A stretch of 64,000 bases of DNA from an uncultured Flavobacteriales bacterium (GCA_903873905.1 CAIQQJ010000145.1:10439-74438); one strand, 5' to 3'. Numbered from the stretch's first letter, positions 1-36,020 are shown. Translations and numbers: made by a program. The notes: generated from the letters alone by a model not told the origin.

Positions 1-1344
1 GCACAAAAAACCTATGATAATTTTTCAAGTCATATTCAAAAGAAGGAATTTTATTCTCTTTACAGTGATTGTGCATTCAATGATTTGAATACGCTTCGTA
101 ATTTCAAAAGTATTCCTGAAGAGAAAAAATTTGATTTGATTGACATTTATGTTTCGGCAGTCATGAATAATGTTCAGGAAGAATTGAATAGCTTATTGGA
201 TGGAAAGTTGACTGAGAAGGCTGCCGACTCCTATCAAATTCAATCTGTTTTAGATCTTGTATCGCTTCCCAAAGAAGAAATGCAAACCATTAAGGGAAAT
301 TATTATTTTTTCAAAGGGTGGGAATATTGTTATTATTCTTCACCTGAACTTTTGAATACCGGTCTCCTCTATTGTGATTCGGCCATTCAAATTATGCCCA
401 ATGCGGCTTACATCTATGACATACAAGGTTTAATTTATCAAGCACAAAAAAAATACGATGAAGCGCAAGTTTCTTTCAAAAAAGCCATACAGCTAGCGCC
501 CAATTGGACTTTTGCCTTGGGAAATCTTGGACACAATTATTCCAATTTGGGAGATGACTCAACAGCCTTGATTTTATATGATCGTGTTTTGAAATTGGAT
601 TCTACACTTTGGCCTGCTTATAATAATATTGGAGCAATTTATTTTCATAAATGGAGAATTTCTCAAGATGAAAACTATAAAAAGTTGGGAATAGAAAATT
701 ATGAAAAAGCAATCTTCTATGATTCCACGAGTTATGATGCGTATTATAACTTGTCGCTTTTTTATGAAAAGGATTCCATTCAAGACAAATACGTTTCCCT
801 ACTGCTAAAAGCTTTTCATGCGGATTCCACCAGAGCGCAAGTGCTTCAACCTTTGGCTGAATATTATTATGATAAAGAAAAATATTCCGAAGCCGCTTAT
901 TATTTTGGACAATGGTACTATGTCTCTTCGGATCCTATACACGAATACAATTGGGGCGTATCAGCATTGCTTGCAAAGGAGTATGATTACGCGATCAGAA
1001 TTTTTCTAAACTATTGTGACATCAACGTCCATGATTCAGATGGATTTTACATGTTAGGGAAATGTTATTACCAGAATTCAAATTACGATACGGCGCTTTA
1101 CTACTTTAAAACAGAAGAAAAAATAAATCCCAATCGTGTCAATTTGATTTACTACACAGGCATGACCTACAAATTATTGGGCAATAACCAAAAAGCCATT
1201 CCCTATTTTCGTAGGGAAATAAAAACCCATCCTAACAATGCATCTGCATGTTACTATGAACTTTCTCTAATCTATTCGGAAAAATTTCTTGGCAAGCGAA
1301 AATCGAAAAGGTATTGGGCAGAGTATGAAAAGTTGAAAGGGTAA
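1..1344 (+). CDS. TPR-repeat protein, 5'-truncated by the window edge; paralog of the C-terminal part of the caspase-TPR protein at 5112..8096
   Basis: Frame is open from base 1 (AQKTYDNF...), so the TTG start at 85 is probably not the true start. Multiple TPR motifs. Colinear similarity to 5112..8096 (YCDSAIQIMPNAAYIY vs YCDSSIKYQPNAAYIY; LAPNW in both). Confidence 0.85.
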   Translation, partial: AQKTYDNFSSHIQKKEFYSLYSDCAFNDLNTLRNFKSIPEEKKFDLIDIYVSAVMNNVQEELNSLLDGKLTEKAADSYQIQSVLDLVSLPKEEMQTIKGNYYFFKGWEYCYYSSPELLNTGLLYCDSAIQIMPNAAYIYDIQGLIYQAQKKYDEAQVSFKKAIQLAPNWTFALGNLGHNYSNLGDDSTALILYDRVLKLDSTLWPAYNNIGAIYFHKWRISQDENYKKLGIENYEKAIFYDSTSYDAYYNLSLFYEKDSIQDKYVSLLLKAFHADSTRAQVLQPLAEYYYDKEKYSEAAYYFGQWYYVSSDPIHEYNWGVSALLAKEYDYAIRIFLNYCDINVHDSDGFYMLGKCYYQNSNYDTALYYFKTEEKINPNRVNLIYYTGMTYKLLGNNQKAIPYFRREIKTHPNNASACYYELSLIYSEKFLGKRKSKRYWAEYEKLKG

Positions 1345-1415
1345 ATGATTAAGTGCCTATTGTTCAGACATTTCTTCTGCTGACTATAGTAAAACCTGTT
1401 AACGAGGATGAGTGC

Positions 1416-1448
1416 AATTTTTCAGAATTAATTTTTCAGAATTAATTT
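1416..1448. repeat. 14-bp tandem repeat (AATTTTTCAGAATT x2.3) upstream of the WD40-caspase gene
   Basis: Read directly from the sequence. Confidence 0.7.
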
Positions 1449-1499
1449 GAAATTTTTGGAACGAAATATTCAAAATCAAAAACAATAACCCCAATTGAT

Positions 1500-4400
1500 A
1501 TGATTTCTCCAAAACAATTTTTGCTTTGTGCAATTCTTTTCATTTGGAATTGTACATTTCTATTTTCACAACAGTCCGCAACCAATTCTTCGAAACCGGA
1601 GTTGGTATTACCATTAGGACACATTGATCCCATTGTATCTTGCGAATTTAGTCCTGATGGGAAAACCGTTCTTACTGGTGCGGAGGATCACACTGCAAAA
1701 ATCTGGGATGTTGTAAGTGGACGGATATTGAAATCCTTTAATGGACATACCACAACAGTTACACACGCAAGATTCAGTCCTGATGGAAAAACCATACTCA
1801 CATCCTCTTATGATAATACCGTAAAAACCTGGGATGTTCAATCTGGAAAATTGCTTTTGAATTTAATTGGCGCTGAAAAATTCAATGATGCACTTTTCAG
1901 CCCAGATGGAAAGAGATTTATCACATCCTCTGAGGATGCCAACTTGAAAATTTGGGATAGCAAGAGTGGTTTACTAATAATTGAATTGGAAGAAACCGAA
2001 GATTGGGGAACACAACCAAAATTCAGCCCCGATGGAAAAATAGTTTTGGCTCTTTCCCATGATCTTGTAAATCTTTGGGATTCACAAACCGGAAAATTAA
2101 TTCGTACACTGAAAGGACACTTCAGTACCATTTATGACGCAGAGTTTAGTCCCGATGGCAAAAGAATCGTTACCACTTCTGATGATAATAAAGCCAAAAC
2201 ATGGGATGTTGAATCCGGTAAAGTACTTCTTACTTTGGAGAAGCATCAGGAAACAGTTTATACAGGGAAATTCAGTCCCGATGGAAAAAAAATCATTACT
2301 GCATCGAGAGATGAATCAGTAATAGTTTGGGATGCATTGAATGGAAAAACCTTGATGCAAATAAATCCACTTTCCGGAAACTGGATCACAGCAGATTTCA
2401 GCCCTGATGGAAATACGATTATCACAAAAGCTTCTCTATTTGAAATAAAAACATGGGATGCAGTCACAGGAAGATTGCGACACACCTTCTCATTAAGCAA
2501 TGAAGGCCTCGCCGCTTTTAGTCCTGATGGAAAAAAATTGGTGACCGCGGCTAGCGATCATACAGGATCCATTTGGAATGTGGCAGAAGGAAAAATAGTT
2601 ACAAAACTTAAAGGGCATACATTCAGTATTTGGGACTGTGTCCTAAGTAAGGATGGTCACAAAATGATTACCACTTATTGGGGAAAGGCGGCACAAGTTT
2701 GGGATCTTACCAATGGAAAATTCGTGTCCAACATTGGAACGGATACCAATATTTTTTATGGAATGATATTCACGCTAGATGGCAAAAGTATCATTACCAC
2801 TTCAGATGATAACGATGTTTGTCTTTGGGATGTCGCAACAGGAAAACTGATCAGGAAATTTTCAGGACACACCAATCGTACCAGAGGAATAAAATTAAAT
2901 TCGAGTGGAACTATAATCCTTTCTTTTGCAACGGATAACACTGCAAGAACATGGGATCTCAAAACTGGAAAATCATTGCACATATTTGAAGGACATGAGG
3001 AATCAATCGAATACGCAGAATTCAGTCGTGATGACAAAAGCATATTAACGATGTCACAGGACAACACAGTAAAAATATGGGATGTGGAAAGCGGAAAATT
3101 AATTCATACGCTGAAAGAACATAATCGTTTTTGTTTTGCAGCACGCTTTTCACCAGATGGAAAACACATCGTTACAAGTGCTGAAGACAGTCTTGCGTCC
3201 GTTTGGGATGTTCAAAGTGGCAAAAAACTTTTTTCGCTTTATGAGCCGAATTTTGGTTGGATCAGTGCTATAGAATTTAATGCTGTAGGCGACGAAGTGG
3301 TGCTCAATTCACTTGATACGGTTGCAACAGTTTGGGATTTATCCAATGGCAAACTTTTACAAAGACTTCCTGGCATCTCTGATTTTGCTGAACTTTTTCC
3401 AAATGAAAAAAACAGGTTGACGTTTGCAAAAGACAATGCAATCATGATTGGCGACTTGCAAACATCGACAGTAAAACACACCATTAACTTTTCCGGACTT
3501 TTTAAATTCATCGATTGGCAAAATCACCGTTTGGCAACTACCGATAATTCCCTTCTTACGTTTTATGATACTGAATCAGGTCTTGAACTGTATAGCATGG
3601 CGGCAGTTGATGCAAAAGAATATGTATGGGTTCTTCCCTCTGGAGAATACATGACCACTCCTGATGCTGCAAAACATCTTGCCTGGGAAAATAATTTTCA
3701 ACTTTACGATTTCGATCAATGGGATTTGCAATACAATCGTCCCGATAAGGTTTTAATTGCATTGGGAAATACGGATACCCTCTTGACAAAATCTTACTAT
3801 GAAGCCTATTATAAACGCCTGCGAAAAATGGGCATTGATAGTACAATGTTCAATGGAGATTTCCATGTACCTGAAACGGAAATAACAAATGCAGAAGAAA
3901 TCCATGACAATACCAATCAATCATCAGTCAATCTAACCATAAGGGTTTCGGATTCAAATCCTCAAAATTTCATCAGGAAAATAATGGTTACGGTAAATGG
4001 CAATCCCATTTATGGAATGAAGGGAATGAATGTTGAAGCCACGAAACAAAATCAAATTTCATTGACAATTCCAATAACATTATCCAATGGAGTCAACAGC
4101 ATTAAAGTTTCGTGTTTAAATAATCATGCTGCTGCTTCCATCAAGCAAACGGCATACATCAATTATCAGCCGAAAGAAAAAATTGTTTCCAAAACCTATT
4201 ACATCGGCATTGGCGTTTCAGATTATCAGAATCCGAATTACAAATTGAATTACGCCGCCAAAGACGTGAACGATTTATCCAAGGGAATAAAAAAGAAATA
4301 TCCCGATGCTGAAATCCATTTGCTGACCAACAAGGATGCCACTCGTGAAAATATCAAGGCACTCAAGAAAGATATTTTGAGCAAGACCAATGTGGATGAT

Positions 4401-5012
4401 ATTGTCATTGTGTCTTTCAGTGGTCACGGTGTTGCCGACAAGAAAAATAATTTTTATTTCGGAACCTACGATATCAGTTTTGATGATCCTGCGAAAAGGG
4501 GTTTATCCTACGATGACATCGAATGGCTGCTCGATAGTATTCCTGCAAGAAAGAAATTGGTCATGATGGATGCGTGTCACAGTGGTGAATTGGATAAAGA
4601 GGATTTTTACGAAATAAAAAAAGACAGCTCCAATCTTTCGAATAACAATGTTGTCGCTTCAAGAGGTGTTTATATGGTTGCATCAGATCATCCGAAACTT
4701 GGAATGAAAAACAGTTTTACATTAATGCAGGATCTTTTTGCCAATGTGAGTGCCGGAAATGGCGCGACAATAATTTCCGCAGCAGCAGGAACCGAATTTG
4801 CCTTTGAGGGAAATGATTGGAAGAATGGCGTGTTCACCTATTGCGTTTTGCAAGGTTTGATAAATAGAAAAGCCGATGCGAATGCTGATTCAGAAATTAC
4901 CGTGAATGAATTGAAATCTTTTGTTGGTGAAGAAGTGCAAAAACTCACCAATGGAAAACAAAAGCCAACAGCACGCCAAGAGAATTTGGAATATGATTGG
5001 AGGATTTGGTGA
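1500..5012 (+). CDS. Secreted WD40-repeat beta-propeller protein with C-terminal caspase-family (peptidase C14) domain
   Basis: N-terminal signal peptide; about 14 GH...FSPDG...WD repeats; C14 dyad motifs FSGHG and MDACHSG; C-terminal NGVFTY...GKQKP...RQEN. Confidence 0.93.
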   Translation: MISPKQFLLCAILFIWNCTFLFSQQSATNSSKPELVLPLGHIDPIVSCEFSPDGKTVLTGAEDHTAKIWDVVSGRILKSFNGHTTTVTHARFSPDGKTILTSSYDNTVKTWDVQSGKLLLNLIGAEKFNDALFSPDGKRFITSSEDANLKIWDSKSGLLIIELEETEDWGTQPKFSPDGKIVLALSHDLVNLWDSQTGKLIRTLKGHFSTIYDAEFSPDGKRIVTTSDDNKAKTWDVESGKVLLTLEKHQETVYTGKFSPDGKKIITASRDESVIVWDALNGKTLMQINPLSGNWITADFSPDGNTIITKASLFEIKTWDAVTGRLRHTFSLSNEGLAAFSPDGKKLVTAASDHTGSIWNVAEGKIVTKLKGHTFSIWDCVLSKDGHKMITTYWGKAAQVWDLTNGKFVSNIGTDTNIFYGMIFTLDGKSIITTSDDNDVCLWDVATGKLIRKFSGHTNRTRGIKLNSSGTIILSFATDNTARTWDLKTGKSLHIFEGHEESIEYAEFSRDDKSILTMSQDNTVKIWDVESGKLIHTLKEHNRFCFAARFSPDGKHIVTSAEDSLASVWDVQSGKKLFSLYEPNFGWISAIEFNAVGDEVVLNSLDTVATVWDLSNGKLLQRLPGISDFAELFPNEKNRLTFAKDNAIMIGDLQTSTVKHTINFSGLFKFIDWQNHRLATTDNSLLTFYDTESGLELYSMAAVDAKEYVWVLPSGEYMTTPDAAKHLAWENNFQLYDFDQWDLQYNRPDKVLIALGNTDTLLTKSYYEAYYKRLRKMGIDSTMFNGDFHVPETEITNAEEIHDNTNQSSVNLTIRVSDSNPQNFIRKIMVTVNGNPIYGMKGMNVEATKQNQISLTIPITLSNGVNSIKVSCLNNHAAASIKQTAYINYQPKEKIVSKTYYIGIGVSDYQNPNYKLNYAAKDVNDLSKGIKKKYPDAEIHLLTNKDATRENIKALKKDILSKTNVDDIVIVSFSGHGVADKKNNFYFGTYDISFDDPAKRGLSYDDIEWLLDSIPARKKLVMMDACHSGELDKEDFYEIKKDSSNLSNNNVVASRGVYMVASDHPKLGMKNSFTLMQDLFANVSAGNGATIISAAAGTEFAFEGNDWKNGVFTYCVLQGLINRKADANADSEITVNELKSFVGEEVQKLTNGKQKPTARQENLEYDWRIW

Positions 5013-5111
5013 AAAATCAGACTGCAACTTTGCTTCCTAGGAAAGATGCGATGGTGAAGTATTGTTACTGTTAAAATATTAATAAATTACAATTCCCGAT
5101 ACAAATATCTA

Positions 5112-8096
5112 TTATTTCTTCCCAGTATTTTTCGCCACTTGCAACTCATCATATTTTCTCAAATATTTTTTTGCTTTCCCTTTCTTAAACGCTTTTTTCT
5201 GGTACAACTGCGACAAACACAAATAGGCTGTTGCAAAATCAGGTTTTTGTAAGGTGCAGTTTTCAAAATACTTTATTGCCCTATTATCGTCTCCTCGCAA
5301 TTGGTAAGCGCGGCCGAGTAAAAAACTTTTCTGGAAATCCTTTTCAGGACTTGGCATTGCTGGTCCAACAATCGCGATAACTGAATCATTGAATCCAGAT
5401 TGCAGAAATAGATTTCCTAATAATAATCTTCCATCCGCACTATTTGGGTGAGCAGCCACTTGTTCTTTTGCAACTTTGGTAGCACCTGGGATGTCACCGG
5501 ATTCCAATAAAGTATTGGCAATATAAATGCGGTAATCGGATTGTGGGATTTGCTTACCAGCTTTTTCATACCAGGAAATTGCTTCATTGTATTTTTTGTT
5601 ATAAGAACAAATCTGTCCAGCAAAATATTTCAATGAATTGTAATGCTCAATTTGTTCACGATAATAATTAATTAGTTGATAAGCAGAATCAAGGTTTTTA
5701 CCAATGATTTGGCAATCCATTTTCCTTCTAACCACTTCCTCTCCACGCGGCATGATGGAATCTCCTTTAGCAAGAAAAGTTGCATAAAGAGGATCTGATG
5801 GATTTATTTTCGCATAAAATCTGATAAGGCACAAAATATTAATCTGGTTATACGGAGCAATACGATAAGCCTTGGAATAATTTGCACGTGCTGAATAACC
5901 ATCTTCCTTTCTCAGAAAAATATCACCCTTCAATCGATAGAGATAATCTTTTGTAGAATCAACAGCGATAAGTCTATTGATGAATTTTATCGAAGCATCA
6001 TCTGCATTGTATTTTTGCCAATAATCCGTGAGGCAATACAAAGCATTTACATTCCAGTTATTTATTTTGAAAGCCTTCTTGTAATATTCATAAGCAATGG
6101 AATCATTTCCTCCGCGTTCAATCATTTGTCCAATGGCAGTATAAATTTCAGCTGAATCACCACCCAATGCAAGGCTCTTTGAAAAATAATTATTCGCAAG
6201 TGTAACATCTGAATTGCTGTAATAATCTCCAAGCATTTTAATGGTGTTCCAATTGGAGGAATCCTTACTATAAGCAAGATTCAGATAATGCAACACGCTG
6301 TCTGTTTTGTAATAAGAGTAATAATAGGATGCAAGTGAACGATAAGGGCTACTAAATTGTGGAGCAATAGCGATGCTCTTTTTCATACAAGCAATAGCAC
6401 GTGTATCATTATCTCCTCCGAAATTATTGTACATGCGATGATAGGTAGTACCCATCATATCATAAGCGGATGTAAAAGTAGAATCAACCGCCAATGCTTT
6501 TTTGCACCATGAAATTGCCGCATTGCAATTATTAAAATATTTCACTTCAATGGCAGCCATACCAACCATTGGGAAAACCCAATTGGGTGCAAGTGATAAA
6601 GCCTTGTTTACATCAGCAAGTGCTAGATCATACTCACCGAGACTTCCATGAAGCATTCCCCTGGTATTATAAATGTAAGCGGCATTGGGTTGATATTTTA
6701 TGGAAGAGTCACAATAGGTAATCCCCAATTCAAATTGTTCATTATGCAAACCAAATGTTTGTTCCCGTGCCATGAAGAAATAATACTTCCCCATGAAATT
6801 ATTTCTCTCGTTGCCTTCCAATACAACCATTCCTATAAGCGATTTCATTGCACCTGAAGCATTGAAGATGGATTGAGAAGAAAGTATAGTCCGATCACCA
6901 CCGAGATAATCATTCACCAAATCCTGGCAATAATTCATCACCTCATCGATATACAAATCTTTCAAATCTGATTTTCGTTCTTCGCTTACATTGGAAGAAG
7001 AGAGCAATTTGTTGAGTTGTGTAAATGCAGATTCAGATTTTCCAGCAATGTAATTTTGTTTATTCAACTCCGCTTGAAAACGCAGATAATCCTGTTGTGT
7101 GGTATAATCATCAAAATGAATCAAACCTGCACGCGTAATATTATCCGCCTTGGAATATGATTTTGGTTTGGTGTTGGGATGAATGGATTGTAGAGCCTTC
7201 GCTTTCATTTTGGCATCAACATGATCAGCTACGCGGTCAATTTTTGTTTCCTCACAAAAAAATGTAGGCGTTTGTTTGACAGTACCCGATGAGGATTTGG
7301 AATCAGCTCGAACACTATCGATAACATAGTTTTTCAATTCATACCACGAAACATTTCCATCATTATCCTTATCCGCCAATCCTGACATTCCGTTGACGAG
7401 ATGATAAGAAAACAAACCTCGTCCACCACCCCACGCTGCTCCTTCCATGGAAGTTTGATTGGCAGAACAGCTTGCAAACTGAATTTCACCAGCGTTCTCT
7501 TCCATAATTTTCGCATTCGTATAACGTATACCATTTACTTTTCCAGGTAAATCATTGGTACGACATGCATCCGTAATCAAAACCACCTCAGCACTTTTTG
7601 ACGTCATGTATTTGACTCTGTTTTTCAAATTAAAAACCTGAATTGTTCCTCCCGTGATATATAAATTATCATCACCGCCTGGAGGAGCATCATAGGCTAA
7701 CAGAAATGCTTCTTGTTCATCATAGGAATCGCCGTGACAGGCGAAATAAATATAAATGCGTGTATGAGGACTTGCACGTTTCGAGAGCCAAGACAAAGCA
7801 GTAGTTATACTTTGTGCTTTTGCATTTTCATTCAACAACAATTTAATATTTAGAGAATCTACATTTCCTCCTGCAGGTGAACGAAGAAAATTATAAAAGG
7901 CCTGAGCATCCGCATCTGCATACTGTAGCGATTGAACATTCTGGTATTTTGAAATCCCAACAACCAAAGCGTAGGTTGTATCATATTGACCTTGCTCTTG
8001 TTGTTGCACAGGAATTGGCCCACGCGCCTGCTGTGCTGAAATATCAAAAGTGATATGCATTAACAACAGCAAAACAAGAGTTCTTCTGATTTTCAT
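5112..8096 (-). CDS. Secreted caspase-family (C14) protease with long C-terminal TPR array
   Basis: Signal peptide; YALVVGISKY...LQYADADA; FACHG and TDACR dyad motifs; GLFSYHL...GLAD; many TPRs. Confidence 0.92.
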   Translation of the reverse strand: MKIRRTLVLLLLMHITFDISAQQARGPIPVQQQEQGQYDTTYALVVGISKYQNVQSLQYADADAQAFYNFLRSPAGGNVDSLNIKLLLNENAKAQSITTALSWLSKRASPHTRIYIYFACHGDSYDEQEAFLLAYDAPPGGDDNLYITGGTIQVFNLKNRVKYMTSKSAEVVLITDACRTNDLPGKVNGIRYTNAKIMEENAGEIQFASCSANQTSMEGAAWGGGRGLFSYHLVNGMSGLADKDNDGNVSWYELKNYVIDSVRADSKSSSGTVKQTPTFFCEETKIDRVADHVDAKMKAKALQSIHPNTKPKSYSKADNITRAGLIHFDDYTTQQDYLRFQAELNKQNYIAGKSESAFTQLNKLLSSSNVSEERKSDLKDLYIDEVMNYCQDLVNDYLGGDRTILSSQSIFNASGAMKSLIGMVVLEGNERNNFMGKYYFFMAREQTFGLHNEQFELGITYCDSSIKYQPNAAYIYNTRGMLHGSLGEYDLALADVNKALSLAPNWVFPMVGMAAIEVKYFNNCNAAISWCKKALAVDSTFTSAYDMMGTTYHRMYNNFGGDNDTRAIACMKKSIAIAPQFSSPYRSLASYYYSYYKTDSVLHYLNLAYSKDSSNWNTIKMLGDYYSNSDVTLANNYFSKSLALGGDSAEIYTAIGQMIERGGNDSIAYEYYKKAFKINNWNVNALYCLTDYWQKYNADDASIKFINRLIAVDSTKDYLYRLKGDIFLRKEDGYSARANYSKAYRIAPYNQINILCLIRFYAKINPSDPLYATFLAKGDSIMPRGEEVVRRKMDCQIIGKNLDSAYQLINYYREQIEHYNSLKYFAGQICSYNKKYNEAISWYEKAGKQIPQSDYRIYIANTLLESGDIPGATKVAKEQVAAHPNSADGRLLLGNLFLQSGFNDSVIAIVGPAMPSPEKDFQKSFLLGRAYQLRGDDNRAIKYFENCTLQKPDFATAYLCLSQLYQKKAFKKGKAKKYLRKYDELQVAKNTGKK

Positions 8097-8125
8097 TTAT
8101 TTCTTATAAAATATTTGAAACTAAA

Positions 8126-10405
8126 TTATTTCCCTTTAGGAAGACTCTGGAAAGTAAATTTCTGAATTGACCAATGCGTAACGACAGGAGGTTTCGGTTT
8201 TGGCGCTCTGGTTTGTGCACCATTATCCATAAGTAAATCATCAAGTGGTCCTTTTGTCCCTCTTATGCCACGCGTCATAACGCCTTTACTTTCAAATACA
8301 CTAGTCGAAACTGCTACGTCAGAAGTCAACAGGAAATAAGTGTCATTCCCAAAAGGAGGACCAATTGTAAAATTTACTGAATCATTCACAGGTAATACAT
8401 TCATCAGCATTGGAGAACTTCCAGGAATATATTTTATCAAGTTACTTTCAGCGCCATATTCTCCAGAAGGATAAAACAATGTCATTTGTCCCGTTGCATC
8501 AATGGTGAAAATATAACAATAACGTGGGATGATTCTGCTTGAAGGTGCATTTGCCGAATCAAGTTTCAATGCGAAGTGATATTCTTGCTCTTCGATCATT
8601 TTCTCTCCTGGCTGAACAATTTGTTTTTTTCCATTCACCAAAACGAGAGAGTAAGGATAATTATCAGCTGGTGATTTCAAGTTTAGCCAAGAACTAATTT
8701 TTCCCAAACGAACCGCAAATACAGAAAGGCTATCAGCAGTTGTGTCAATTCCATAGCTGCACCAATTTGTTCGTACTGGAAATGAATTGCGAAAGGAAGA
8801 ATCCTGATCGGAAATATTTGGACGAATCAGTGAATAGGCCAATGAACCTTTTTCAGATCTTCCAACAAGAATATAATTTGCCAGCAATGGATTTTTTGTG
8901 AACTCAACTGCGGAATTAGGAGAACCAGGTCCAAGCTTTTTATTGAGTGCTAAAGTTAATTCAGTTGAAGGAGGAAGTTGTAGAAAAACTTCACTGCCTA
9001 TAGGTATAACAGCTTTGATGTTCGCAACTGTCAATGCGGAAAGAATATGCGATTCGTTATGCCCGGCCGATGTCACCAACCATTTTCCTTCATTGAATTG
9101 AATAACATTTGCAGGTGCCTTCTTTGTTGGATCACTTACTAATTTATAATTACTTCCTAAAAATGACATTACAGGAGCTATTTCTTTCTTGAGTTGAGCT
9201 GCTGTCATTGTTGTTTCAGGTGCCCAAATTCTCAAAGTTGGACCAGCAGGATTTACCCAGCTAACCATTTCAACTAAGTCTCCATTTTTTAGGTTGGAAA
9301 TATTTCCTTTACCAACAACAATTGCACTTGATTCCCCAATGCGTTCCACTTTAGTTACTTCAAGTGCAATCGTATCCTTTCCTGTCACTTTAATAAAACG
9401 ACATCCTTCATAAATTGATAGTTCATGTCCTCCTCTTAAAGTCACCTGAGTCGCTGTTACATTCATCACGGCAATAAAAGTTTTTGCAGAATTTTCAGTG
9501 ACTTTATCATTAAAAATTCCGGCTTTTTTTCGTTCATCAGTTCCTCCCATAATCGGATCTTGAAAAGTAGGTCCCTGATCTGATTTTATTATTCCAAGAA
9601 TGGAAGTGTAAAGTCTTTCTGCACTTTGATTGGCGGAAGAAGAATTAATTGCTTTTATCAAAGCAAGAGTAAATGCACCATGTGCAGTTCCATCAAGGTC
9701 TGCTGCTTCCTTTGCGGTTTGATTACGTTGCGCGGCTGAAAATAGCAATGCACCTCGTTTTTCAGGTACAATTTGTTCTTTCGAATCGTCGTTAGCATCC
9801 CAATCAACTGGAGGTGCTTTTCTTTCTTTAAAAGTCACGGGCAAACTATTTCCTCTTGCAATTGCACCGCTATGACAACTGTCAAAAATCAGTGTAAGTG
9901 TAACACCCTTATCTAAAAGTTGATTGAATAATTTTGAAAGTTCCTTGTTGCGAATATCCCACAAATCAGCAGGAACAATAGTTTGATCCCAACCTGTTCC
10001 ATCATAAGACTTGCTGTTTTTTACTTGTGAGCCATGTCCTGCATAATAAAAAAACACAACATCGCCAGGTTGAGAGGTATTGATCAATTTTTGAATTCCA
10101 TCAAGAATACCTTGACGTGAAGCCTTTTGATTGAACAATGTGTCAATGTTATTTTCCATAAATCCATAACGCGCCATAATGATGGAACGCATAGATTTTG
10201 CATCGTTTAAACATCCGTTCAGATTTTCCCAACCAGAACGCTCATTGGCCTTCCCCCTATTTGCAAATACTTCTGGAGTAGTAGCTGTGGGCACGTAAAT
10301 ATCAATACCAATCAATAAGGCACGTTTGGTAATTGCAGACATTGTAAAAGAAGAAAAACACAATGTCAAAATAAAAAAAGCACGGGATAGGGGAAATGTT
10401 TTCAT
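8126..10405 (-). CDS. Secreted metacaspase/orthocaspase-like C14 protease with C-terminal DUF4384-like domain
   Basis: Signal peptide; KRALLIGID...LNGCLNDA; YAGHGS and FDSCHSG; HGAFT; C-terminal YIFTIDATGQMTLFYP...PPFGND pattern typical of DUF4384. Confidence 0.9.
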   Translation of the reverse strand: MKTFPLSRAFFILTLCFSSFTMSAITKRALLIGIDIYVPTATTPEVFANRGKANERSGWENLNGCLNDAKSMRSIIMARYGFMENNIDTLFNQKASRQGILDGIQKLINTSQPGDVVFFYYAGHGSQVKNSKSYDGTGWDQTIVPADLWDIRNKELSKLFNQLLDKGVTLTLIFDSCHSGAIARGNSLPVTFKERKAPPVDWDANDDSKEQIVPEKRGALLFSAAQRNQTAKEAADLDGTAHGAFTLALIKAINSSSANQSAERLYTSILGIIKSDQGPTFQDPIMGGTDERKKAGIFNDKVTENSAKTFIAVMNVTATQVTLRGGHELSIYEGCRFIKVTGKDTIALEVTKVERIGESSAIVVGKGNISNLKNGDLVEMVSWVNPAGPTLRIWAPETTMTAAQLKKEIAPVMSFLGSNYKLVSDPTKKAPANVIQFNEGKWLVTSAGHNESHILSALTVANIKAVIPIGSEVFLQLPPSTELTLALNKKLGPGSPNSAVEFTKNPLLANYILVGRSEKGSLAYSLIRPNISDQDSSFRNSFPVRTNWCSYGIDTTADSLSVFAVRLGKISSWLNLKSPADNYPYSLVLVNGKKQIVQPGEKMIEEQEYHFALKLDSANAPSSRIIPRYCYIFTIDATGQMTLFYPSGEYGAESNLIKYIPGSSPMLMNVLPVNDSVNFTIGPPFGNDTYFLLTSDVAVSTSVFESKGVMTRGIRGTKGPLDDLLMDNGAQTRAPKPKPPVVTHWSIQKFTFQSLPKGK

Positions 10406-10449
10406 AGAGTAATAAAGATAATCAAAGAAATTAGAAAAAAATTGAAGAC

Positions 10450-10481
10450 AAAAAAAAGAGCACTCCTAAAAAGAAGTGCTC
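10450..10481 (-). terminator. Intrinsic terminator between the small secreted protein and the caspase genes
   Basis: Minus strand GAGCACTTC-6 nt-GGAGTGCTC followed by a T run. Confidence 0.75.
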
Positions 10482-10500
10482 CTCAACAATATCAATTCAA

Positions 10501-10908
10501 TTATTTCAAGTTGATATGGTAGTCGCCACTGCAATCACCATTATCGGACCAAGAATAAGTTCCTCCGGCAGTCACGCAATAATAAGTTGTGTATCCACCA
10601 TACACTGTTACATCTCCAACACCGTAAGGAGCAACATCACCTTTGTAGTTTCCATCAACATAAACGTTGATCCAGTAACCAGTGTAATTGTCAAATGTAA
10701 TTGTGCAAAAATCAGTAGAACCACGTTGAGCTGGAGCTGGAGCAGCTACATCGGTAGTTGGTTTGTCAACTTTAATAGCAGCACCACGAGCTTTAGCATC
10801 AACTTTTGTCTGCTTTGGATCTTGAACGATCAATGGTTTTTTTACTTGAGCTGAAACGTACGATACAGACATTACTGTAAGGCAAATCATCAATAGATAC
10901 TTTTTCAT
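10501..10908 (-). CDS. Small secreted protein: low-complexity N-terminal segment with two RG motifs, then a small beta-rich Cys-containing domain
   Basis: Signal peptide (VSA/QV); KARGAA and AQRGST; CTITFDNYTGYWINVYVDG; has its own promoter and terminator. Confidence 0.85.
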   Translation of the reverse strand: MKKYLLMICLTVMSVSYVSAQVKKPLIVQDPKQTKVDAKARGAAIKVDKPTTDVAAPAPAQRGSTDFCTITFDNYTGYWINVYVDGNYKGDVAPYGVGDVTVYGGYTTYYCVTAGGTYSWSDNGDCSGDYHINLK

Positions 10909-10947
10909 AGGATAATTGGGTTTTGGTTTGGGTTAATTCGTGTAATG

Positions 10948-10955
10948 CAAATATA
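10948..10955 (-). promoter_or_regulatory. Bacteroidota sigma70 -7 box (TATATTTG) for the small protein/caspase operon
   Basis: Matches TAnnTTTG about 40 bp upstream of the ATG at 10908. Confidence 0.65.
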
Positions 10956-11230
10956 TTTAAAATTGTGAAGTACAAAATAAAACAAGTGATGTAAAGTCTT
11001 TTTTTACGTTTTTAATGAAAAAATTACGCTCTGAGGAAACTGCAAACAAAACTCTACCACTCTATATTTCAAATCTTTACGTTACAATTAATTTTTCAAG
11101 TGGTACTTGTTATGCTATGTTATTTTAAATGTACCAACACTCAAAACAATAAATTCTCCATTATTCGGATCTGACGAAAAGTAATGAGATAGATTTCTAT
11201 ATTTATGGCCAAACCCCAAAAAACAATTTC

Positions 11231-12136
11231 TTGCAAAAGCCCCACATCAGATTTTTTCTACATTCTATTCTTTCAAAGAGAAATTATTTTTTTCTATTTT
11301 TTTTTCTGTATAATTTCTCTTTAGAACTTTCTGCCCAACATAAAATTGATTTTCAGGTAAAATCTTGGACAGAGATTTTGAATCTTGCCAGAAAAGAGAA
11401 CAAGCCCATTTTTGTAGATGCGTTTACGAACTGGTGTGGTCCTTGTAAAAAAATGGCAGAAGATGTTTTTTCTGATTCAAGCGTGGTGCCATTTTTCAAT
11501 AAATCATTTGTCAATTACAGTGTCAATATTGAAACTCAGGAAGGAAAATTATTTGACTCCATCTTCAAAGTTTCGGCCTACCCCTCACTCTTATTTTTTG
11601 AAGCTAACGGAGAATTGATTTTCAGAGAAATTGGTTATAGGAATGTGTCAAAGTTTCTCGCACTTGGAGTGAGCGCAAAAAACAATCGAGCTTTCATGGA
11701 CTTTACAAAAAAAATGAGAACTGCCTACGAAAATGGATCTGCCAACAAACATTTACTCTATAAATACTTCCTGATTTTACGTGATAGTGGAAGGTCTGTT
11801 GATTCCGTTGCCGCTAGCATCATAAGCAAACTTGTACCTGAAGATCTTAAAAATGACACGGCATTCAACATCTGGTCTGATTATGATCAAAGGATGGATT
11901 CTCCTTTACTCGATTATTTCCTAGAACAAAAACAATGGTTCATTACGAATCGTTCACAAAATGACTTCGATCACAAATTGAATATGATTGTTGCAGAAAA
12001 CTTGTCCTCTTCGAAAAGCTCAAATGATTTAGCTCGCTATGAGAATTTGAAAACTTTCATTCGCCGCGTTTATGATGGCGATGAGGAACAACTTGTTCTG
12101 AATGGTGTGGATCGAAAGTTTAATAGCGAAAAATAA
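11231..12136 (+). CDS. Exported thioredoxin-family protein
   Basis: FVDAFTNWCGPCKKM motif; AYPSLLF cis-Pro motif; hydrophobic N-terminus ending LSA/Q. Start uncertain. Confidence 0.85.
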   Translation: MQKPHIRFFLHSILSKRNYFFLFFFLYNFSLELSAQHKIDFQVKSWTEILNLARKENKPIFVDAFTNWCGPCKKMAEDVFSDSSVVPFFNKSFVNYSVNIETQEGKLFDSIFKVSAYPSLLFFEANGELIFREIGYRNVSKFLALGVSAKNNRAFMDFTKKMRTAYENGSANKHLLYKYFLILRDSGRSVDSVAASIISKLVPEDLKNDTAFNIWSDYDQRMDSPLLDYFLEQKQWFITNRSQNDFDHKLNMIVAENLSSSKSSNDLARYENLKTFIRRVYDGDEEQLVLNGVDRKFNSEK

Positions 12137-12166
12137 TCCCTTCGTTTTACAAATTTCTATTTCACT

Positions 12167-13384
12167 ATGAAACCCCTTCTGTACCGAGACGCTTTTTTCG
12201 CCACCATTTTCGTAATAGCGCTCTATTTGCTTTTGAAACTTGTAATTCTGAATATCCATTTCCTAGAACCTGGACATGAAGAGAAAAAAGATTTTGAAAT
12301 GACTGATCTGGTTTATTCCAAATTCAGTAGTGAAAACAAAAATGGAGTTTCAGTTACAGATCGAGATACCAATATTGTAATGGTAAATATTGGAAATCTA
12401 ACCAGAAAAGAAATTGCAGAGTTATTGGATTCCATTAATTCACATAACCCAAAAGTCATTGCATTAGATGTATTATTCAGTGCAAATAAGCAGGATGATG
12501 ATACATCACTTGCAACAGTTCTTAAAAAAATATCGAACAAATTGGTAATGGTGGGAATGTTGGCATACGATGAACAGGAAAATGCATCAGGAATCGAATC
12601 TTCTCAATCACAATTTAATGTTGGGGCAAAAATTGGGTATACCAATTTCGTTACCAATTCAATGCTCAGTGTTGTCCGATATTTTGCACCATTTACAAAA
12701 GTTGGAAATGAAGAAGTGCCTGCATTTCCCGTTGCCATTGCAGAAAAATATAATCCAGCACTAATTGAAAAGCTGAAACGTCGTGGAAATGAAAAGGAAA
12801 TTATTAATTATCAGTACACGCAGAAAAACATTTATGCTTACGATCACAAGGACATCACGGATCAAAATAGCGGAGCGCTTTCAAATCTGATGGGGAAAAT
12901 TGTCTTGGTTGGCTATTTGGGTTCAGATCTGGATCATGTGGTTACCGAGGATTATCACTACACACCAATGAACGAGGGCAAAAATAAAAAAACTGATCCC
13001 GACATGAGTGGACTAGCCATTCATGCAAATATCATCAGTATGATTCTTCATGGAAAATACATTAGCCATGTTCCAAAATGGTTGATGTGGACGATTTCAA
13101 TTATCCTTTGTTTTTTACACATGATTTTTTTTATTCAATATTTTGTAAAAAAACATTTGTGGTTTCATTTGTATTTCAAAACCATTCAATTCGTCAGTTC
13201 TGCAATCATTATCGGTATTGCAGTTGGACTTTATGGCAAATGGGATTTGCGAATGGAAACCGAAATTTTGCTCGCCCCTATTCTACTATCGGTAGATGCG
13301 CTCTATTTCTTTGAACCACTTATGTTATGGCTTAATAAAAAGCGTGGAATAAAAACTTACTTAATCATGTTACATGACCACTAA
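12167..13384 (+). CDS. CHASE2-domain membrane protein with no cytoplasmic output domain
   Basis: N-terminal TM; IVMVNI...R.EIA.L...PKVIALDVLF; GKIVLVG...D.HYTP...MSGLAIHANII; three C-terminal TMs, then stop. Confidence 0.88.
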   Translation: MKPLLYRDAFFATIFVIALYLLLKLVILNIHFLEPGHEEKKDFEMTDLVYSKFSSENKNGVSVTDRDTNIVMVNIGNLTRKEIAELLDSINSHNPKVIALDVLFSANKQDDDTSLATVLKKISNKLVMVGMLAYDEQENASGIESSQSQFNVGAKIGYTNFVTNSMLSVVRYFAPFTKVGNEEVPAFPVAIAEKYNPALIEKLKRRGNEKEIINYQYTQKNIYAYDHKDITDQNSGALSNLMGKIVLVGYLGSDLDHVVTEDYHYTPMNEGKNKKTDPDMSGLAIHANIISMILHGKYISHVPKWLMWTISIILCFLHMIFFIQYFVKKHLWFHLYFKTIQFVSSAIIIGIAVGLYGKWDLRMETEILLAPILLSVDALYFFEPLMLWLNKKRGIKTYLIMLHDH

Positions 13385-14309
13385 AAAATATTTTCTTTCC
13401 GCGGTCTTTAGTTTTGTTTTGTTTGTTTCTGCAATTAATGCATTTGGACAAACGACAAGCATGCGTGTATTTTATTTCCGTGGGACTGTACAATACAAGA
13501 ATCCTGGATCAAACTACAATGCAATTAATCAAGTCAATATTATTCTCAAAGAAAATCAAACCGTTAAAGTTGGTACGAATTCTCAATTAGTTTTGATTCA
13601 TCCAAACGGGAAACAAATTACGCTTAGTAAACCAGTTGAAATTTTGGTAAGTGAATTAATCATAATGGGAAATGTATCCAATGGCCAATCACTGATTGAT
13701 TCTTACATTAATTTTCTCTGGAAGGAAACAACTGCAGGTCATCAGGAAATGGACCCGGGCAAAAAAGAATCAACTACACAAAAGGGAATGGTGGTGAGAG
13801 GGAATTGTGACGGTGTCCATTTGGATTTTCCTTATGACGGAAGTGAAGTGACCGATAGTATTCTCACTTTTAATTGGACACCGTACGTTGGAACTGCTTT
13901 TTCCTTCCGTGTTTACGATGCACAAGGCGGTCCTGATTGGCCAGCAATGTACTCACAGAAAGTTTCCACCCAATCCTTGACCATAAATTTGGATACTGGA
14001 ATTTTTGCAAAATATGATTCCTTGTATTGGGATGTCTATCAGGAAGGAATGTCGGAAAGTGAATGTCCGCATTATTTATATGTAAAAAGAGACGTTGCCT
14101 TTAATGACAACTTGAAAAAGGATTTTGCAAATTTGGATTTAAGTGCATACGATGCCCCAATGAAGGAATTGTTGTTGGGCGCATTTTACGAGAAGCATCG
14201 CATGTATTCCGAAGCGCGTGAGCATTATCAAGCCGCGGTCAAACTTGCTCCCGACAATGTCAACTTTTCAGAAACGCTGAAGAAGTTTGAGGAGCGTGTT
14301 GGGAAATAA
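13374..14309 (+). CDS. Secreted protein: FecR-like N-terminal beta domain, VVRG linker, DUF928/Ig-like region, C-terminal TPR
   Basis: Signal peptide; RGTVQY...QTVKVGTNSQLVL; GMVVRGNC...FP...TFNW; C-terminal EAREHYQAAVKLAPDN. Overlaps the CHASE2 stop codon. Confidence 0.7.
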   Translation: MTTKKYFLSAVFSFVLFVSAINAFGQTTSMRVFYFRGTVQYKNPGSNYNAINQVNIILKENQTVKVGTNSQLVLIHPNGKQITLSKPVEILVSELIIMGNVSNGQSLIDSYINFLWKETTAGHQEMDPGKKESTTQKGMVVRGNCDGVHLDFPYDGSEVTDSILTFNWTPYVGTAFSFRVYDAQGGPDWPAMYSQKVSTQSLTINLDTGIFAKYDSLYWDVYQEGMSESECPHYLYVKRDVAFNDNLKKDFANLDLSAYDAPMKELLLGAFYEKHRMYSEAREHYQAAVKLAPDNVNFSETLKKFEERVGK

Positions 14310-14695: not shown

Positions 14696-14703
14696 TATTT
14701 TTG
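14696..14703 (+). promoter_or_regulatory. -7 box (TATTTTTG) upstream of moaA
   Basis: TAnnTTTG 10 bp before the ATG at 14713. Confidence 0.5.
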
Positions 14704-14712
14704 TACCTCCCA

Positions 14713-15696: not shown

Positions 15697-15710
15697 TTTT
15701 TTTTACCCAC

Positions 15711-15734
15711 CGTTATTACTAGAAAGACATAGCG
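15711..15734. promoter_or_regulatory. Putative ModE-type operator (CGTTATTAC-N6-GACATAGCG)
   Basis: 24-bp imperfect palindrome with the geometry of the ModE box CGnTATATA-N6-TATATAnCG, located just before moeA; a ModE-like gene is in the operon. Confidence 0.5.
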
Positions 15735-15744
15735 AATTATTTTT

Positions 15745-26686: not shown

Positions 26687-26828
26687 ATTTCATTTCGAAT
26701 TTGCACGAATATACGAATCATTATAGGCCTTTATTGTAATTTAAAAAATCCCTATTTTATAAATGAAAATTTCTGTTTTAAACTATTTCGGAGCAGGGAA
26801 ATTTTAGTTCTCCACTTACACCTTTCGC

Positions 26829-26894
26829 GCTTTCCGCTGCAAGTCTCCCAACCCCAACAATTCTGTTGGGGTTGGGAGGCTTTACGCTGCAATC
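26829..26894. repeat. REP-like element: GCTTT(C/A)CGCTGCAA direct repeats bracketing a perfect 15-bp hairpin
   Basis: CTCCCAACCCCAACA (26845-26859), ATTC loop, TGTTGGGGTTGGGAG (26864-26878); flanking motif copies at 26829 and 26879. Confidence 0.75.
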
Positions 26895-26932
26895 ACGGCT
26901 ATTTCCGAACATCCCAGTTTCAAACAAAAAAC

Positions 26933-35935: not shown

Positions 35936-36020
35936 GGAGAAATGGCAGAGTGGTCGATCGCGGTAGTCTTGAAAACTATTGACTGTAATAGGTCCGGGGG
36001 TTCGAATCCCTCTTTCTCCG
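35936..36020 (+). tRNA. tRNA-Ser (anticodon TGA), CCA not encoded
   Basis: Acceptor stem GGAGAAA/TTTCTCC; D arm GCAGAGTGGTCGATCGC; anticodon arm GTAGT-CTTGAAA-ACTAT; long variable arm; GGGGG-TTCGAAT-CCCTC; discriminator G. Confidence 0.97.

What the first reader, a model, noticed from the sequence alone, without database searches (positions are those of the whole stretch)
1..14309. Extracytoplasmic multi-caspase / CHASE2 locus: candidate proteolytic signalling or defence cascade
Seen: three C14 proteases with intact His/Cys dyads and different accessory domains (WD40, TPR, DUF4384-like), plus a probable fourth truncated at the window edge. They cluster with a small secreted protein, an exported thioredoxin, a CHASE2 membrane protein and a FecR/DUF928-like TPR protein. 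The soluble members visible in full have signal peptides and I see no T9SS CTD, which suggests a periplasmic location. Established: characterised bacterial caspase-like proteases in immunity (gasdermin-associated, type III CRISPR-associated) are cytoplasmic, and orthocaspases/metacaspases cleave after basic residues. Inference: this is an envelope-localised zymogen cascade in which WD40/TPR sensors activate proteases that process a ligand read by CHASE2.
Basis: partly seen in the sequence, partly recalled or inferred. Interest (0 to 1): 0.8.

Follow-up and report, generated by a model that had tools for sequence, protein, structure and literature searches.

The report
Exported caspase cluster beside CHASE2 pair
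Four exported caspase-like proteases sit next to a membrane CHASE2 protein and its secreted MtxA-like partner, a combination that recurs in other Bacteroidota and probably forms an uncharacterised protein-cutting switch in the cell envelope.

Summary
The locus encodes four Peptidase_C14 proteins with His/Cys dyads: two caspase-TPR, one WD40-caspase and one caspase-DUF4384-like. The fourth is completed 1 kb upstream of the window. It also encodes a 135-aa secreted protein, an exported thioredoxin, a stand-alone CHASE2 membrane protein and a 311-aa secreted protein (p311).

The soluble proteins have signal-peptide-like N-termini, and none has a T9SS tail.

Comparative data show a real module. 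A p311-like gene lies beside stand-alone CHASE2 in 35 of 43 fetched Bacteroidota loci. Exported C14 or TPR-CHAT proteases lie within 10 kb in 15 of 43 loci (7 other genera). One genus has a tight operon: caspase-DUF4384, CHASE2, p311, caspase-TPR.

p311 is not FecR by Pfam. Its fold and gene context match MtxA, the magnetotaxis protein encoded next to a CHASE2 cyclase. Its disordered linker carries a near-invariant TG[AS]VxR[GAS] motif.

My reading is inference: a periplasmic regulated-proteolysis module that works like LapD/LapG, in which Arg-directed caspase-fold proteases cut p311 and the small protein. CHASE2 has no cytoplasmic output domain and would act as membrane regulator or scaffold.

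The cascade and the "ligand read by CHASE2" steps are untested. The thioredoxin is not conserved.

The parts
1..1344 (+). C-terminal 447 aa (TPR region) of caspase-TPR1. The full protein is 782 aa and starts 1005 bases upstream of the window (G000:C145:9434-11782). Its C14 domain lies outside the window.
1500..5012 (+). WD40-caspase, 1170 aa: signal-peptide-like N-terminus, WD40 repeats (about aa 14-590), Ig-like stretch, C-terminal Peptidase_C14 (His976 at nt 4425-4427, Cys1026 at nt 4575-4577).
5112..8096 (-). Caspase-TPR2, 994 aa: signal-peptide-like N-terminus, N-terminal Peptidase_C14 (His121, Cys178), long TPR region.
8126..10405 (-). Caspase-DUF4384-like, 759 aa: signal-peptide-like N-terminus, metacaspase-like C14 (His124, Cys177), conserved 450-aa C-terminal region with a sub-threshold DUF4384 match.
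10455..10484 (-). Terminator-like hairpin (13 pairs followed by a T run) between the small-protein gene and the caspase-DUF4384-like gene. It may act as a partial terminator.
   Evidence: The total count of such sites is not above shuffles (11 against 10.3), but this is the longest stem.
10501..10908 (-). small135: signal peptide, disordered linker with two invariant Arg-Gly pairs (R41-G42 and R62-G63, nt 10720-10788), C-terminal 7-strand beta-sandwich (aa 64-135).
11231..12136 (+). Exported thioredoxin-like protein, 301 aa, 30 nt upstream of CHASE2. Not conserved in related loci.
12167..13384 (+). [quoted passage not shown]
13374..14309 (+). p311, an MtxA-like secreted protein that overlaps the CHASE2 gene by 11 nt. 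It has a signal peptide, an N-terminal beta domain (aa 29-91), a disordered linker (aa 107-157), an Ig-like domain (163-238) and TPR-like helices (241-309).
13782..13802 (+). Codons for p311 residues 137-143 (KGMVVRG), the family motif TG[AS]VxR[GAS] in the disordered linker. Candidate protease site or docking motif.

Best explanation
SHOWN.
- The locus joins two conserved gene sets of Bacteroidota.
- Set A is a stand-alone CHASE2 inner-membrane protein translationally coupled to a roughly 300-aa secreted MtxA-like partner (p311).
- Set B is a group of exported caspase-fold proteases (caspase-DUF4384-like, caspase-TPR, WD40-caspase) with a small secreted protein and a putative lipoprotein.
- In other lineages set A sits in one operon with the same caspase families, or next to exported TPR-CHAT proteases.

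INFERRED.
- Together they form an extracytoplasmic regulated-proteolysis module that works like LapD/LapG.
- The CHASE2 protein has no cytoplasmic output domain. It would act as a membrane-anchored regulator or scaffold through its periplasmic domain.
- p311 would be its partner and a protease substrate, cut after the near-invariant Arg of TG[AS]VxR[GAS] in its disordered linker. That would separate the N-terminal beta domain from the Ig-TPR part.
- small135, with two invariant Arg-Gly pairs in its disordered linker, would be a second substrate or precursor.
- TPR, WD40 and DUF4384-like regions would select targets.
- The physiological output (envelope remodelling, stress response or conflict) is unknown.
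For: CHASE2-p311 pairing:
- 35 of 43 fetched stand-alone CHASE2 loci have a p311-like gene next to CHASE2 by profile. BLAST clustering gave 33 of 44 including the window.
- The two genes overlap by 11 nt here.

Proteases near CHASE2:
- C14 genes lie near CHASE2 in 9 of 43 loci and TPR-CHAT in 6 of 43, so 15 of 43 loci in 7 other genera.
- In genus g90, 7 of 7 loci read caspase-DUF4384-like > CHASE2 > p311, and 5 of 7 continue with caspase-TPR. These are flanked by housekeeping genes.

Genome-level co-occurrence:
- C14 is present in 30 of 47 genomes with stand-alone CHASE2, against 118 of 354 without. Relatedness inflates this contrast.

Conserved protease set:
- A second genome (G233, another family) has small135, caspase-DUF4384-like, the lipoprotein homologue, caspase-TPR and further WD40/C14 genes together.
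- All partner proteases start with signal-peptide-like N-termini.

p311 structure:
- Foldseek's best hit is MtxA 4z29 (E 2.9e-5, TM-target 0.56). VIA gives Z 8.8 with 145 residues aligned.
- The N-domain matches 5ix9 at Z 10.0 with 75 of 76 residues aligned.
- mtxA is followed by a CHASE2-cyclase gene, and MtxA's flexible linker is cut by trypsin to give a delta1-141 fragment (passages of PMC4439547).
- 5ix9 is the template used for LapA's retention module, after which LapG cuts (passages of bioRxiv 10.1101/198937).

Motif:
- R142 is kept in 147 of 148, G138 in 143 of 148 and V140 in 138 of 148 family sequences.
- The motif lies in a stretch with pLDDT under 50.

Specificity and fusion:
- Non-caspase C14 enzymes cleave after Arg/Lys (passage of PMC5756287).
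- All four enzymes keep Asp two residues before the catalytic Cys.
- A published metacaspase-CHASE2 fusion exists in Trichodesmium.
Against: - No cleavage, binding or localisation has been measured.
- In 28 of 43 CHASE2 loci no C14 or CHAT gene lies within about 10 kb. The linker motif is conserved there too, so it may be a CHASE2-docking motif rather than a cleavage site.
- Two same-genus genomes (G006, G019) and G302 carry caspase-DUF4384-like genes, but no stand-alone CHASE2 was found in them with my queries.
- In G233 and G403 caspase-DUF4384-like lies on a different contig from CHASE2.
- WD40-caspase paralogues lie on three other contigs of this genome, with no CHASE2 there by the search.
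- In the published caspase-CHASE2 fusions the caspase is predicted to be cytoplasmic, the opposite side from here.
- Sequence-level kinship of p311 to MtxA is marginal (MtxA_C in 2 of 22 and 5 of 100 members, all weak).
Confidence: 0.4

Rival explanations
1. Two unrelated modules that merely lie side by side here. One is a multi-caspase island with its own role, such as periplasmic protein turnover. The other is a CHASE2/MtxA-like envelope sensor pair that needs no protease.
For: - The pair stands alone among housekeeping genes in many lineages (28 of 43 loci without a protease).
- Caspase islands exist without an adjacent CHASE2 (G006, G233 contig C19).
- The two sets are transcribed divergently in the window.
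Against: - The four-gene operon of genus g90 interleaves the two sets.
- A different protease family of the same fold (TPR-CHAT) also sits beside the pair in 6 loci of 5 genera.
- C14 is found about twice as often in genomes with stand-alone CHASE2.
Confidence: 0.2
2. An envelope zymogen cascade in which WD40/TPR sensors activate proteases, which then make a ligand that CHASE2 reads and signals into the cell.
For: - There are several proteases with different repeat domains.
- small135 looks like a precursor: a disordered linker with invariant Arg-Gly pairs, then a folded domain, and a hairpin after its gene.
- CHASE2 is a sensor domain in other receptors.
Against: - This CHASE2 protein has no kinase, cyclase or other output domain.
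- In a sample of 120 listed homologues of 300-458 aa, only PF05226 is precomputed.
- small135 was found in only 3 other loci, and in none of the 43 CHASE2 loci.
- Nothing shows that one protease activates another.
Confidence: 0.12
3. A conflict or defence system (phage, predator or kin discrimination) that senses envelope damage or invasion and answers with destructive periplasmic proteolysis.
For: - Distribution is patchy. The CHASE2 gene was not found in 26 of 26 same-genus genomes, and the caspase-DUF4384-like region was found in 2 of 11.
- C14 genes show paralogue expansion.
- Caspase-fold proteases act in known bacterial immunity (recalled).
Against: - PADLOC models matched only the generic caspase domain. 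They matched nothing for CHASE2, p311, small135, the thioredoxin or the lipoprotein.
- The EACC1-type caspase model scores 44.8-78.3 bits against a cut-off of 140.
- In g90 and g49 the module sits in a fixed housekeeping context across all sampled species, unlike typical defence islands.
- No mobile-element genes were seen in the flanks I annotated.
Confidence: 0.15
4. The clan-CD enzymes mature or attach surface proteins as transpeptidases, in the way PorU or GPI transamidase do. p311 and small135 would be cargo or adaptors.
For: - Clan-CD relatives can act as sortase-like enzymes (recalled).
- T9SS cargo genes and PorP/SprF lie just upstream.
Against: - No T9SS tail was found on any locus protein.
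- The upstream T9SS genes are not conserved with the module in other loci.
- There is no sorting-signal-like C-terminal motif shared by p311 and small135.
Confidence: 0.08

Closest known systems
MtxA plus CHASE2-adenylate cyclase gene pair of magnetotactic bacteria (PDB 4z29; PMC4439547, passages read)
   Same: - A secreted protein of about 310 aa with a signal peptide, an N-terminal beta region, a protease-sensitive flexible linker, an Ig-like domain and a TPR domain.
- It is encoded next to a CHASE2 membrane protein.
- The fold match is Foldseek E 2.9e-5 and VIA Z 8.8.
   Different: - Here CHASE2 has no cyclase or any other output domain.
- The pair is joined by exported caspase-fold proteases.
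- Sequence similarity to Pfam MtxA_C is absent for the window's protein and weak in a few relatives.
LapD / LapG / LapA periplasmic proteolytic switch (bioRxiv 10.1101/198937, passages read)
   Same: - An inner-membrane protein with a periplasmic domain, a periplasmic cysteine protease, and a substrate.
- The substrate has a folded N-terminal beta module (template 5ix9) followed by a flexible stretch that holds the cleavage motif.
- p311's N-domain is the best VIA match to 5ix9 (Z 10.0, 75 of 76 aligned).
   Different: - The protease fold differs (C14 caspase-like rather than the LapG family).
- There is no c-di-GMP receptor domain, no RTX adhesin and no T1SS.
- The candidate site is an Arg motif, not di-alanine.
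- The likeness is one of working principle only, and it is inferred.
FecR/LysM protein plus CHASE2 histidine kinase operon of Burkholderia and Pseudomonas (PMC5192318, passages read)
   Same: A secreted accessory protein encoded directly beside a CHASE2 membrane protein.
   Different: - p311 does not match Pfam FecR.
- There is no kinase or response regulator here.
- Proteases are present here.
Metacaspase/orthocaspase-CHASE2 fusions (Trichodesmium; EACC2 systems) and the WD40-CHASE2-DUF928 cluster noted in Nostoc punctiforme (PMC3501461, PMC2853523, PMC8195603, PMC5587647; passages read)
   Same: The same domain families (C14, WD40, CHASE2, a DUF928-like protein) are linked by fusion or by neighbourhood.
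   Different: - In the fusions the caspase precedes the first membrane helix and is predicted to be cytoplasmic. Here the proteases are separate and exported.
- None of these papers, in the passages I read, describes a mechanism or the Bacteroidota operons.

Membership tests
Peptidase_C14 (PF00656) | Domain match above Pfam's cut-off (21.4 bits) | tested here: met
   88.2, 71.4, 60.7 and 62.7 bits for the four proteins. Two of them scored only when the domain region was scanned alone.
Peptidase_C14 (PF00656) | Catalytic His and Cys in the (S/A)GHG and D-x-C motifs | tested here: met
   H129/C186, H976/C1026, H121/C178 and H124/C177. The motifs align to metacaspase-9 chains.
Metacaspase/orthocaspase type (Arg/Lys-specific) | Acidic S1 pocket and cleavage after basic residues | not testable with these tools
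   Asp two residues before the catalytic Cys, and an upstream Asp motif, are present in all four. The mapping to pocket residues is recalled. The specificity rule comes from PMC5756287.
CHASE2 (PF05226) receptors | [quoted passage not shown] | tested here: met
   94 bits against a cut-off of 26.3. Hydrophobic segments lie at about 4-33, 302-320, 335-353 and 367-385.
CHASE2 (PF05226) receptors | Cytoplasmic output domain (kinase, cyclase, GGDEF/EAL) | tested here: not met
   The protein is 405 aa and has only the CHASE2 family in Pfam. The homologues listed are 300-458 aa with PF05226 only.
MtxA family (PF22121 MtxA_C, PF22433) | Pfam match | tested here: not met
   No match for the window's p311. 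Weak sub-threshold MtxA_C matches appear in 2 of 22 and 5 of 100 relatives. Atlas neighbours carry MtxA families at 21% (a lead only).
MtxA family | Ig-like plus TPR fold, overall architecture, and a neighbouring CHASE2 gene | tested here: met
   4z29 is the best Foldseek hit (prob 1.00, E 2.9e-5). VIA Z 8.8 with 145 aligned. Architecture. Gene context.
FecR (PF04773) | Pfam match on p311 or its relatives | tested here: not met
   0 of 22 and 0 of 100 members. The six-frame search of 5 genomes hit other genes but never the p311 genes.
DUF928 (PF06051) | Pfam match | tested here: inconclusive
   1 of 22 members (E 0.083) and 1 of 100 (E 7e-4). Atlas neighbour clusters carry DUF928 at 22-26%.
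DUF4384 (PF14326) | Pfam match above the cut-off of 27 bits | tested here: inconclusive
   25.2 bits for the full protein and 26.3 bits for its C-terminal part, at aa 627-695.
T9SS cargo | C-terminal sorting domain (CHU_C / Por_Secre_tail) | tested here: not met
   None was reported for the locus proteins. The same library found these domains on two upstream genes.
Known anti-phage systems (PADLOC-DB 2.0) | Matches to system-specific components | tested here: not met
   Only the generic 'caspase' model matched (E 1e-10 to 5e-20). Nothing matched the five non-protease proteins.
EACC1-associated caspases (NF047832) | Score above the curated cut-off of 140 bits | tested here: not met
   44.8 to 78.3 bits.
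LapD/LapG system | LapG-family protease and LapD receptor | not tested
   I made no search with those families. No such family appeared in the Pfam scans of the locus. Only the substrate-like layout of p311 resembles this system.

The most novel reading that the evidence does not exclude
A widespread, unnamed envelope switch. A stand-alone CHASE2 protein and its MtxA-like partner form a family with at least 815 clusters at 50% identity scoring E <= 1e-30. Together they would control exported caspase-fold proteases (C14 or CHAT). These would cut the partner at its invariant TG[AS]VxR motif. That would make it a caspase-based counterpart of LapD/LapG and the first assigned job for CHASE2 without an output domain. 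It would also be a case of bacterial caspase homologues working outside the cytoplasm.
Probability: 0.3. Interest if true: 0.8.

Novelty: new variant of a known kind. Interest (0 to 1): 0.62.

Why it matters
- CHASE2 has been known as a sensor domain for two decades, yet one of the papers read states that what it recognises is not known.
- Bacterial caspase homologues are mostly discussed as cytoplasmic death or immunity enzymes.
- This locus and its relatives give a concrete, testable set of partners: a membrane CHASE2 protein, one conserved secreted partner with a single near-invariant Arg motif in a floppy linker, and exported proteases expected to cut after Arg.
- If the link holds, it gives CHASE2 biology a handle and a function for the large unannotated p311 family. 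It also gives an example of caspase-fold proteases acting in the periplasm.
- If it does not hold, the CHASE2-p311 pairing alone (35 of 43 loci) is still a solid annotation gain.

Tried and rejected
- The search for related loci with the CHASE2 protein found no relative. I switched to the genome search.
- The word-based homologue search with p311 returned only itself. The profile search of representatives then found the family.
- A profile search of PDB sequences with p311 gave only generic TPR and Fn3 hits. MtxA scored E 0.47, and the linker/Ig part alone did not find MtxA. I therefore could not check whether MtxA carries the same Arg motif.
- Complex prediction of the CHASE2 periplasmic domain with p311 gave no verdict (score 0.01). 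This is evidence neither way.
- I looked for fusions of p311 with proteases or CHASE2 among the best 150 representatives. All are proteins of about 300 aa, except one 3818-aa repeat protein and one 231-aa protein.
- The small135 fold search gave only generic beta-sandwich matches (best Z 7.8). The Atlas label 'beta/gamma crystallin' was not confirmed.
- The sigma-70 promoter scan is uninformative (65 sites against 52.6 in shuffles).
- No ECF sigma, cyclase or CHAT gene lies in the 10 kb upstream.
- Literature searches: CHASE2+caspase (10 papers), CHASE2+'CHAT domain' (0), CHASE2+CHAT (3, 1 relevant), CHASE2+FecR (4), DUF4384 (7), DUF928 (1), orthocaspase+periplasm (4). None described this operon in the listings and passages I read.

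Full report
WHAT IS THERE.

The window is G000:C145:10439-74438. The region 1-14309, together with 1 kb upstream, encodes nine proteins.

On the plus strand:
- A 324-aa putative lipoprotein (lipo324, upstream of the window).
- Caspase-TPR1, 782 aa. Only its last 447 aa lie in the window.
- WD40-caspase, 1170 aa, at 1500-5012.

Converging on these from the minus strand:
- small135, at 10501-10908.
- Caspase-DUF4384-like, 759 aa, at 8126-10405.
- Caspase-TPR2, 994 aa, at 5112-8096.

Diverging from small135 across a 322-bp spacer, on the plus strand:
- An exported thioredoxin-like protein, at 11231-12136.
- A stand-alone CHASE2 protein, 405 aa, at 12167-13384.
- p311, at 13374-14309. It overlaps the CHASE2 gene by 11 nt.

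Molybdenum-cofactor genes follow. T9SS cargo genes and PorP/SprF precede the locus.

Peptidase_C14 is above Pfam's cut-off in all four proteases. Two of them showed the domain only when that region was scanned alone. The full-length scan of caspase-TPR2 listed only TPR families. The six-frame genome search also missed it, whereas my HMM found it. The His/Cys dyads are intact. Four of the genome's nine C14 ORFs lie within 11.4 kb.

LOCATION.

All eight soluble proteins have a charged N-terminus, a hydrophobic core and a small-residue cleavage pattern, typically ...SA/FS|Q. Orthologues elsewhere keep this pattern. [quoted passage not shown]

No T9SS tail was found on the locus proteins, although the same library finds such tails on neighbouring genes. 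This supports a periplasmic or membrane-proximal location. It is a heuristic, not a SignalP result or an experiment.

IS IT A CONSERVED SYSTEM?

The CHASE2 protein was not found in 26 of 26 same-genus genomes or in 8 of 8 other genomes of the family. A profile finds stand-alone CHASE2 in 47 of 401 genomes of the class, in 22 of 202 genera.

I fetched about 20 kb around 43 such places: all rows except the window's own and five second pieces of split matches. The findings are:
- A p311-like gene lies next to CHASE2 in 35 of 43 loci. BLAST clustering gave 33 of 44 with the window included. Of the eight loci without it, four hold the weakest CHASE2 matches.
- C14 genes of the same two families as here lie beside the pair in 9 loci, and TPR-CHAT genes in 6. 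That is 15 of 43 loci, in 7 genera.
- In genus g90 all 7 loci read caspase-DUF4384-like > CHASE2 > p311 with gaps of a few bases. In 5 of 7 caspase-TPR follows. The block sits between PheS and RsmF.
- In g130, caspase-TPR diverges from CHASE2-p311.
- In L046 the order is CHASE2 > p311-like > TPR-CHAT.

C14 occurs in 148 of 401 genomes overall. It occurs in 30 of 47 genomes with stand-alone CHASE2, against 118 of 354 without (odds ratio 3.5). Relatives are not independent, so the p-value overstates. Of five 'pair-only' genomes, 4 have C14 and 5 have CHAT elsewhere.

The protease set is itself conserved:
- The non-caspase part of caspase-DUF4384-like occurs in 13 of 401 genomes.
- small135 sits next to it in G006, G019 and G233.
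- G233 has small135, caspase-DUF4384-like, a lipo324 homologue (E 1e-59) and a caspase-TPR. It also has a 736-aa C14 protein, a WD40 protein, two further large C14 proteins and a DUF4136 gene, all in one island.

Evidence against a strict link:
- G006, G019 and G302 have caspase-DUF4384-like genes, but no stand-alone CHASE2 was found with my queries.
- In G233 and G403 the two sets lie on different contigs.
- 28 of 43 loci have no nearby protease.
- The thioredoxin was found in none of the 48 other loci.

WHAT IS p311?

Pfam sees only a C-terminal TPR. FecR is not matched in 22 or in 100 family members, nor at the p311 genes of five genomes.

The AlphaFold2 model (22-row alignment, mean pLDDT 75.7) shows four parts:
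- A confident N-terminal beta domain (aa 29-91).
- A disordered stretch (aa 107-157, pLDDT under 50).
- An Ig-like sandwich (aa 163-238).
- TPR-like helices (aa 241-309).

Foldseek's best PDB hit is the C-terminal Ig+TPR fragment of the magnetotaxis protein MtxA (4z29; E 2.9e-5, prob 1.00, TM-target 0.56). VIA-align gives Z 8.8 with 145 aligned residues for 4z29. For the N-domain it gives Z 10.0 (rmsd 2.9, 75 of 76 aligned) to 5ix9, a 'cell surface anchoring domain'.

The passages I read of PMC4439547 say the following. MtxA is 313 aa with a signal peptide. It has a beta region and a flexible linker at which trypsin produced a delta1-141 fragment. It then has Ig-like and TPR domains. mtxA is followed by a gene with CHASE2 and adenylate-cyclase similarity.

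The Atlas places p311 near Bacteroidota clusters that carry MtxA families (21%) or DUF928 (22-26%) (a lead only). By Pfam the family is essentially unannotated: MtxA_C in 5 of 100 members and DUF928 in 1 of 100, all weak. The family is large: 8090 representatives at E <= 0.001 and 815 at E <= 1e-30.

Across the window's protein plus 147 representatives, the most conserved positions include a linear motif in the disordered linker. I dropped one 231-aa row from that set, and a 3818-aa repeat protein was not included. The counts are T137 128, G138 143, V140 138 and R142 147, each of 148, followed by G, A or S.

small135 has a similar layout. It has a disordered first half with two invariant Arg-Gly pairs in 4 of 4 homologues, then a seven-strand sandwich. 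A 13-pair hairpin with a T run follows its gene.

MECHANISM (inference).

Non-caspase C14 enzymes cut after Arg or Lys (PMC5756287, passage). All four enzymes here keep an Asp two residues before the catalytic Cys. The mapping of that Asp to the S1 pocket is recalled.

The closest working analogue is LapD/LapG/LapA. There, a periplasmic cysteine protease is held by an inner-membrane protein. It cuts a motif in the flexible stretch that follows LapA's N-terminal retention module, which was modelled on 5ix9 (bioRxiv 10.1101/198937, passages).

I therefore propose three things:
- CHASE2 here is a membrane regulator or scaffold, since it lacks any output domain.
- p311 is its partner and a substrate cut after R142.
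- small135 is a second substrate or precursor.

The alternative for the motif, a docking site for CHASE2, is equally compatible with its conservation in loci without proteases. Nothing tests a cascade among the proteases.

COMPARISON AND NOVELTY.

These were already in print, in the passages I read:
- MtxA next to a CHASE2 cyclase.
- FecR/LysM next to CHASE2 kinases.
- A WD40-CHASE2-DUF928 cluster noted in Nostoc punctiforme.
- Caspase-CHASE2 fusions.

I did not find the following in my seven literature searches:
- Operons of stand-alone CHASE2 and an MtxA-like protein with exported C14 or CHAT proteases.
- The linker motif.
- Any mechanism.

Supplements were closed and subscription journals are not held, so prior description cannot be excluded. 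PADLOC and the EACC1 model do not claim the locus.

I rate it a new variant of a known kind, namely a periplasmic sensor-partner pair combined with regulated proteolysis. My confidence that the gene association is real is about 0.85. My confidence in the proposed mechanism is about 0.4.

Noticed in passing
G000 contigs C150:159-8944, C60:7110-11151, C7:23159-26938: Five further C14 ORFs, four of them WD40-caspase-like paralogues of 1149-1732 aa. Their C-terminal caspase parts are 72-97% identical among three of them. There is also a 176-aa fragment that is 97% identical to its neighbour's C-terminus. This suggests recent duplication or recombination.
   Followed up: partly
L060/L062 (G233:C19:40100-71900): A larger island in another family. 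It holds small135, caspase-DUF4384-like, a lipo324 homologue, caspase-TPR, a 736-aa C14 protein, a WD40 protein and two more large C14 proteins. It ends at a DUF4136 gene, a family that also closes the Burkholderia FecR-CHASE2 kinase operon.
   Followed up: partly
L016:7362-9253 and L038:10718-12576: Two tandem p311-like paralogues (300 and 291 aa) follow CHASE2 in these two genomes of one genus (g15).
   Followed up: no
L015, L031, L032, L035: In family f15 the TPR-CHAT gene beside CHASE2/p311 is preceded by conserved DUF3352-like and DUF5723 genes. In two of these loci an AhpC peroxiredoxin lies between CHAT and p311. That is a thioredoxin-fold neighbour, as in the window, but not a homologue of the window's thioredoxin.
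   Followed up: partly
window 26819-26904 (-) and 35936-36020 (+): A Flavo-1 RNA (53.7 bits against a gathering score of 42) and a tRNA were found by Rfam.
   Followed up: no
L009:449-7881 (upstream of the window): Two SBBP-repeat proteins with T9SS tails (CHU_C, Por_Secre_tail), a PorP/SprF gene, a YceI-like lipoprotein and a small CarboxypepD_reg-like protein.
   Followed up: partly
window 14701-16935: MoaA-like radical SAM and MoeA molybdopterin genes start directly after p311. They mark the end of the locus.
   Followed up: no
P0124: A 3818-aa protein matches the p311 profile in 33 stretches through its Ig-like part only. It is probably a repeat adhesin rather than a relative.
   Followed up: no
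window 8126-10405, alignment: The caspase-DUF4384-like family keeps an Arg-Gly three residues after the CHSG catalytic motif. It also keeps conserved GV...R and TR motifs in its C-terminal tail. These are possible self-processing or regulatory sites.
   Followed up: no
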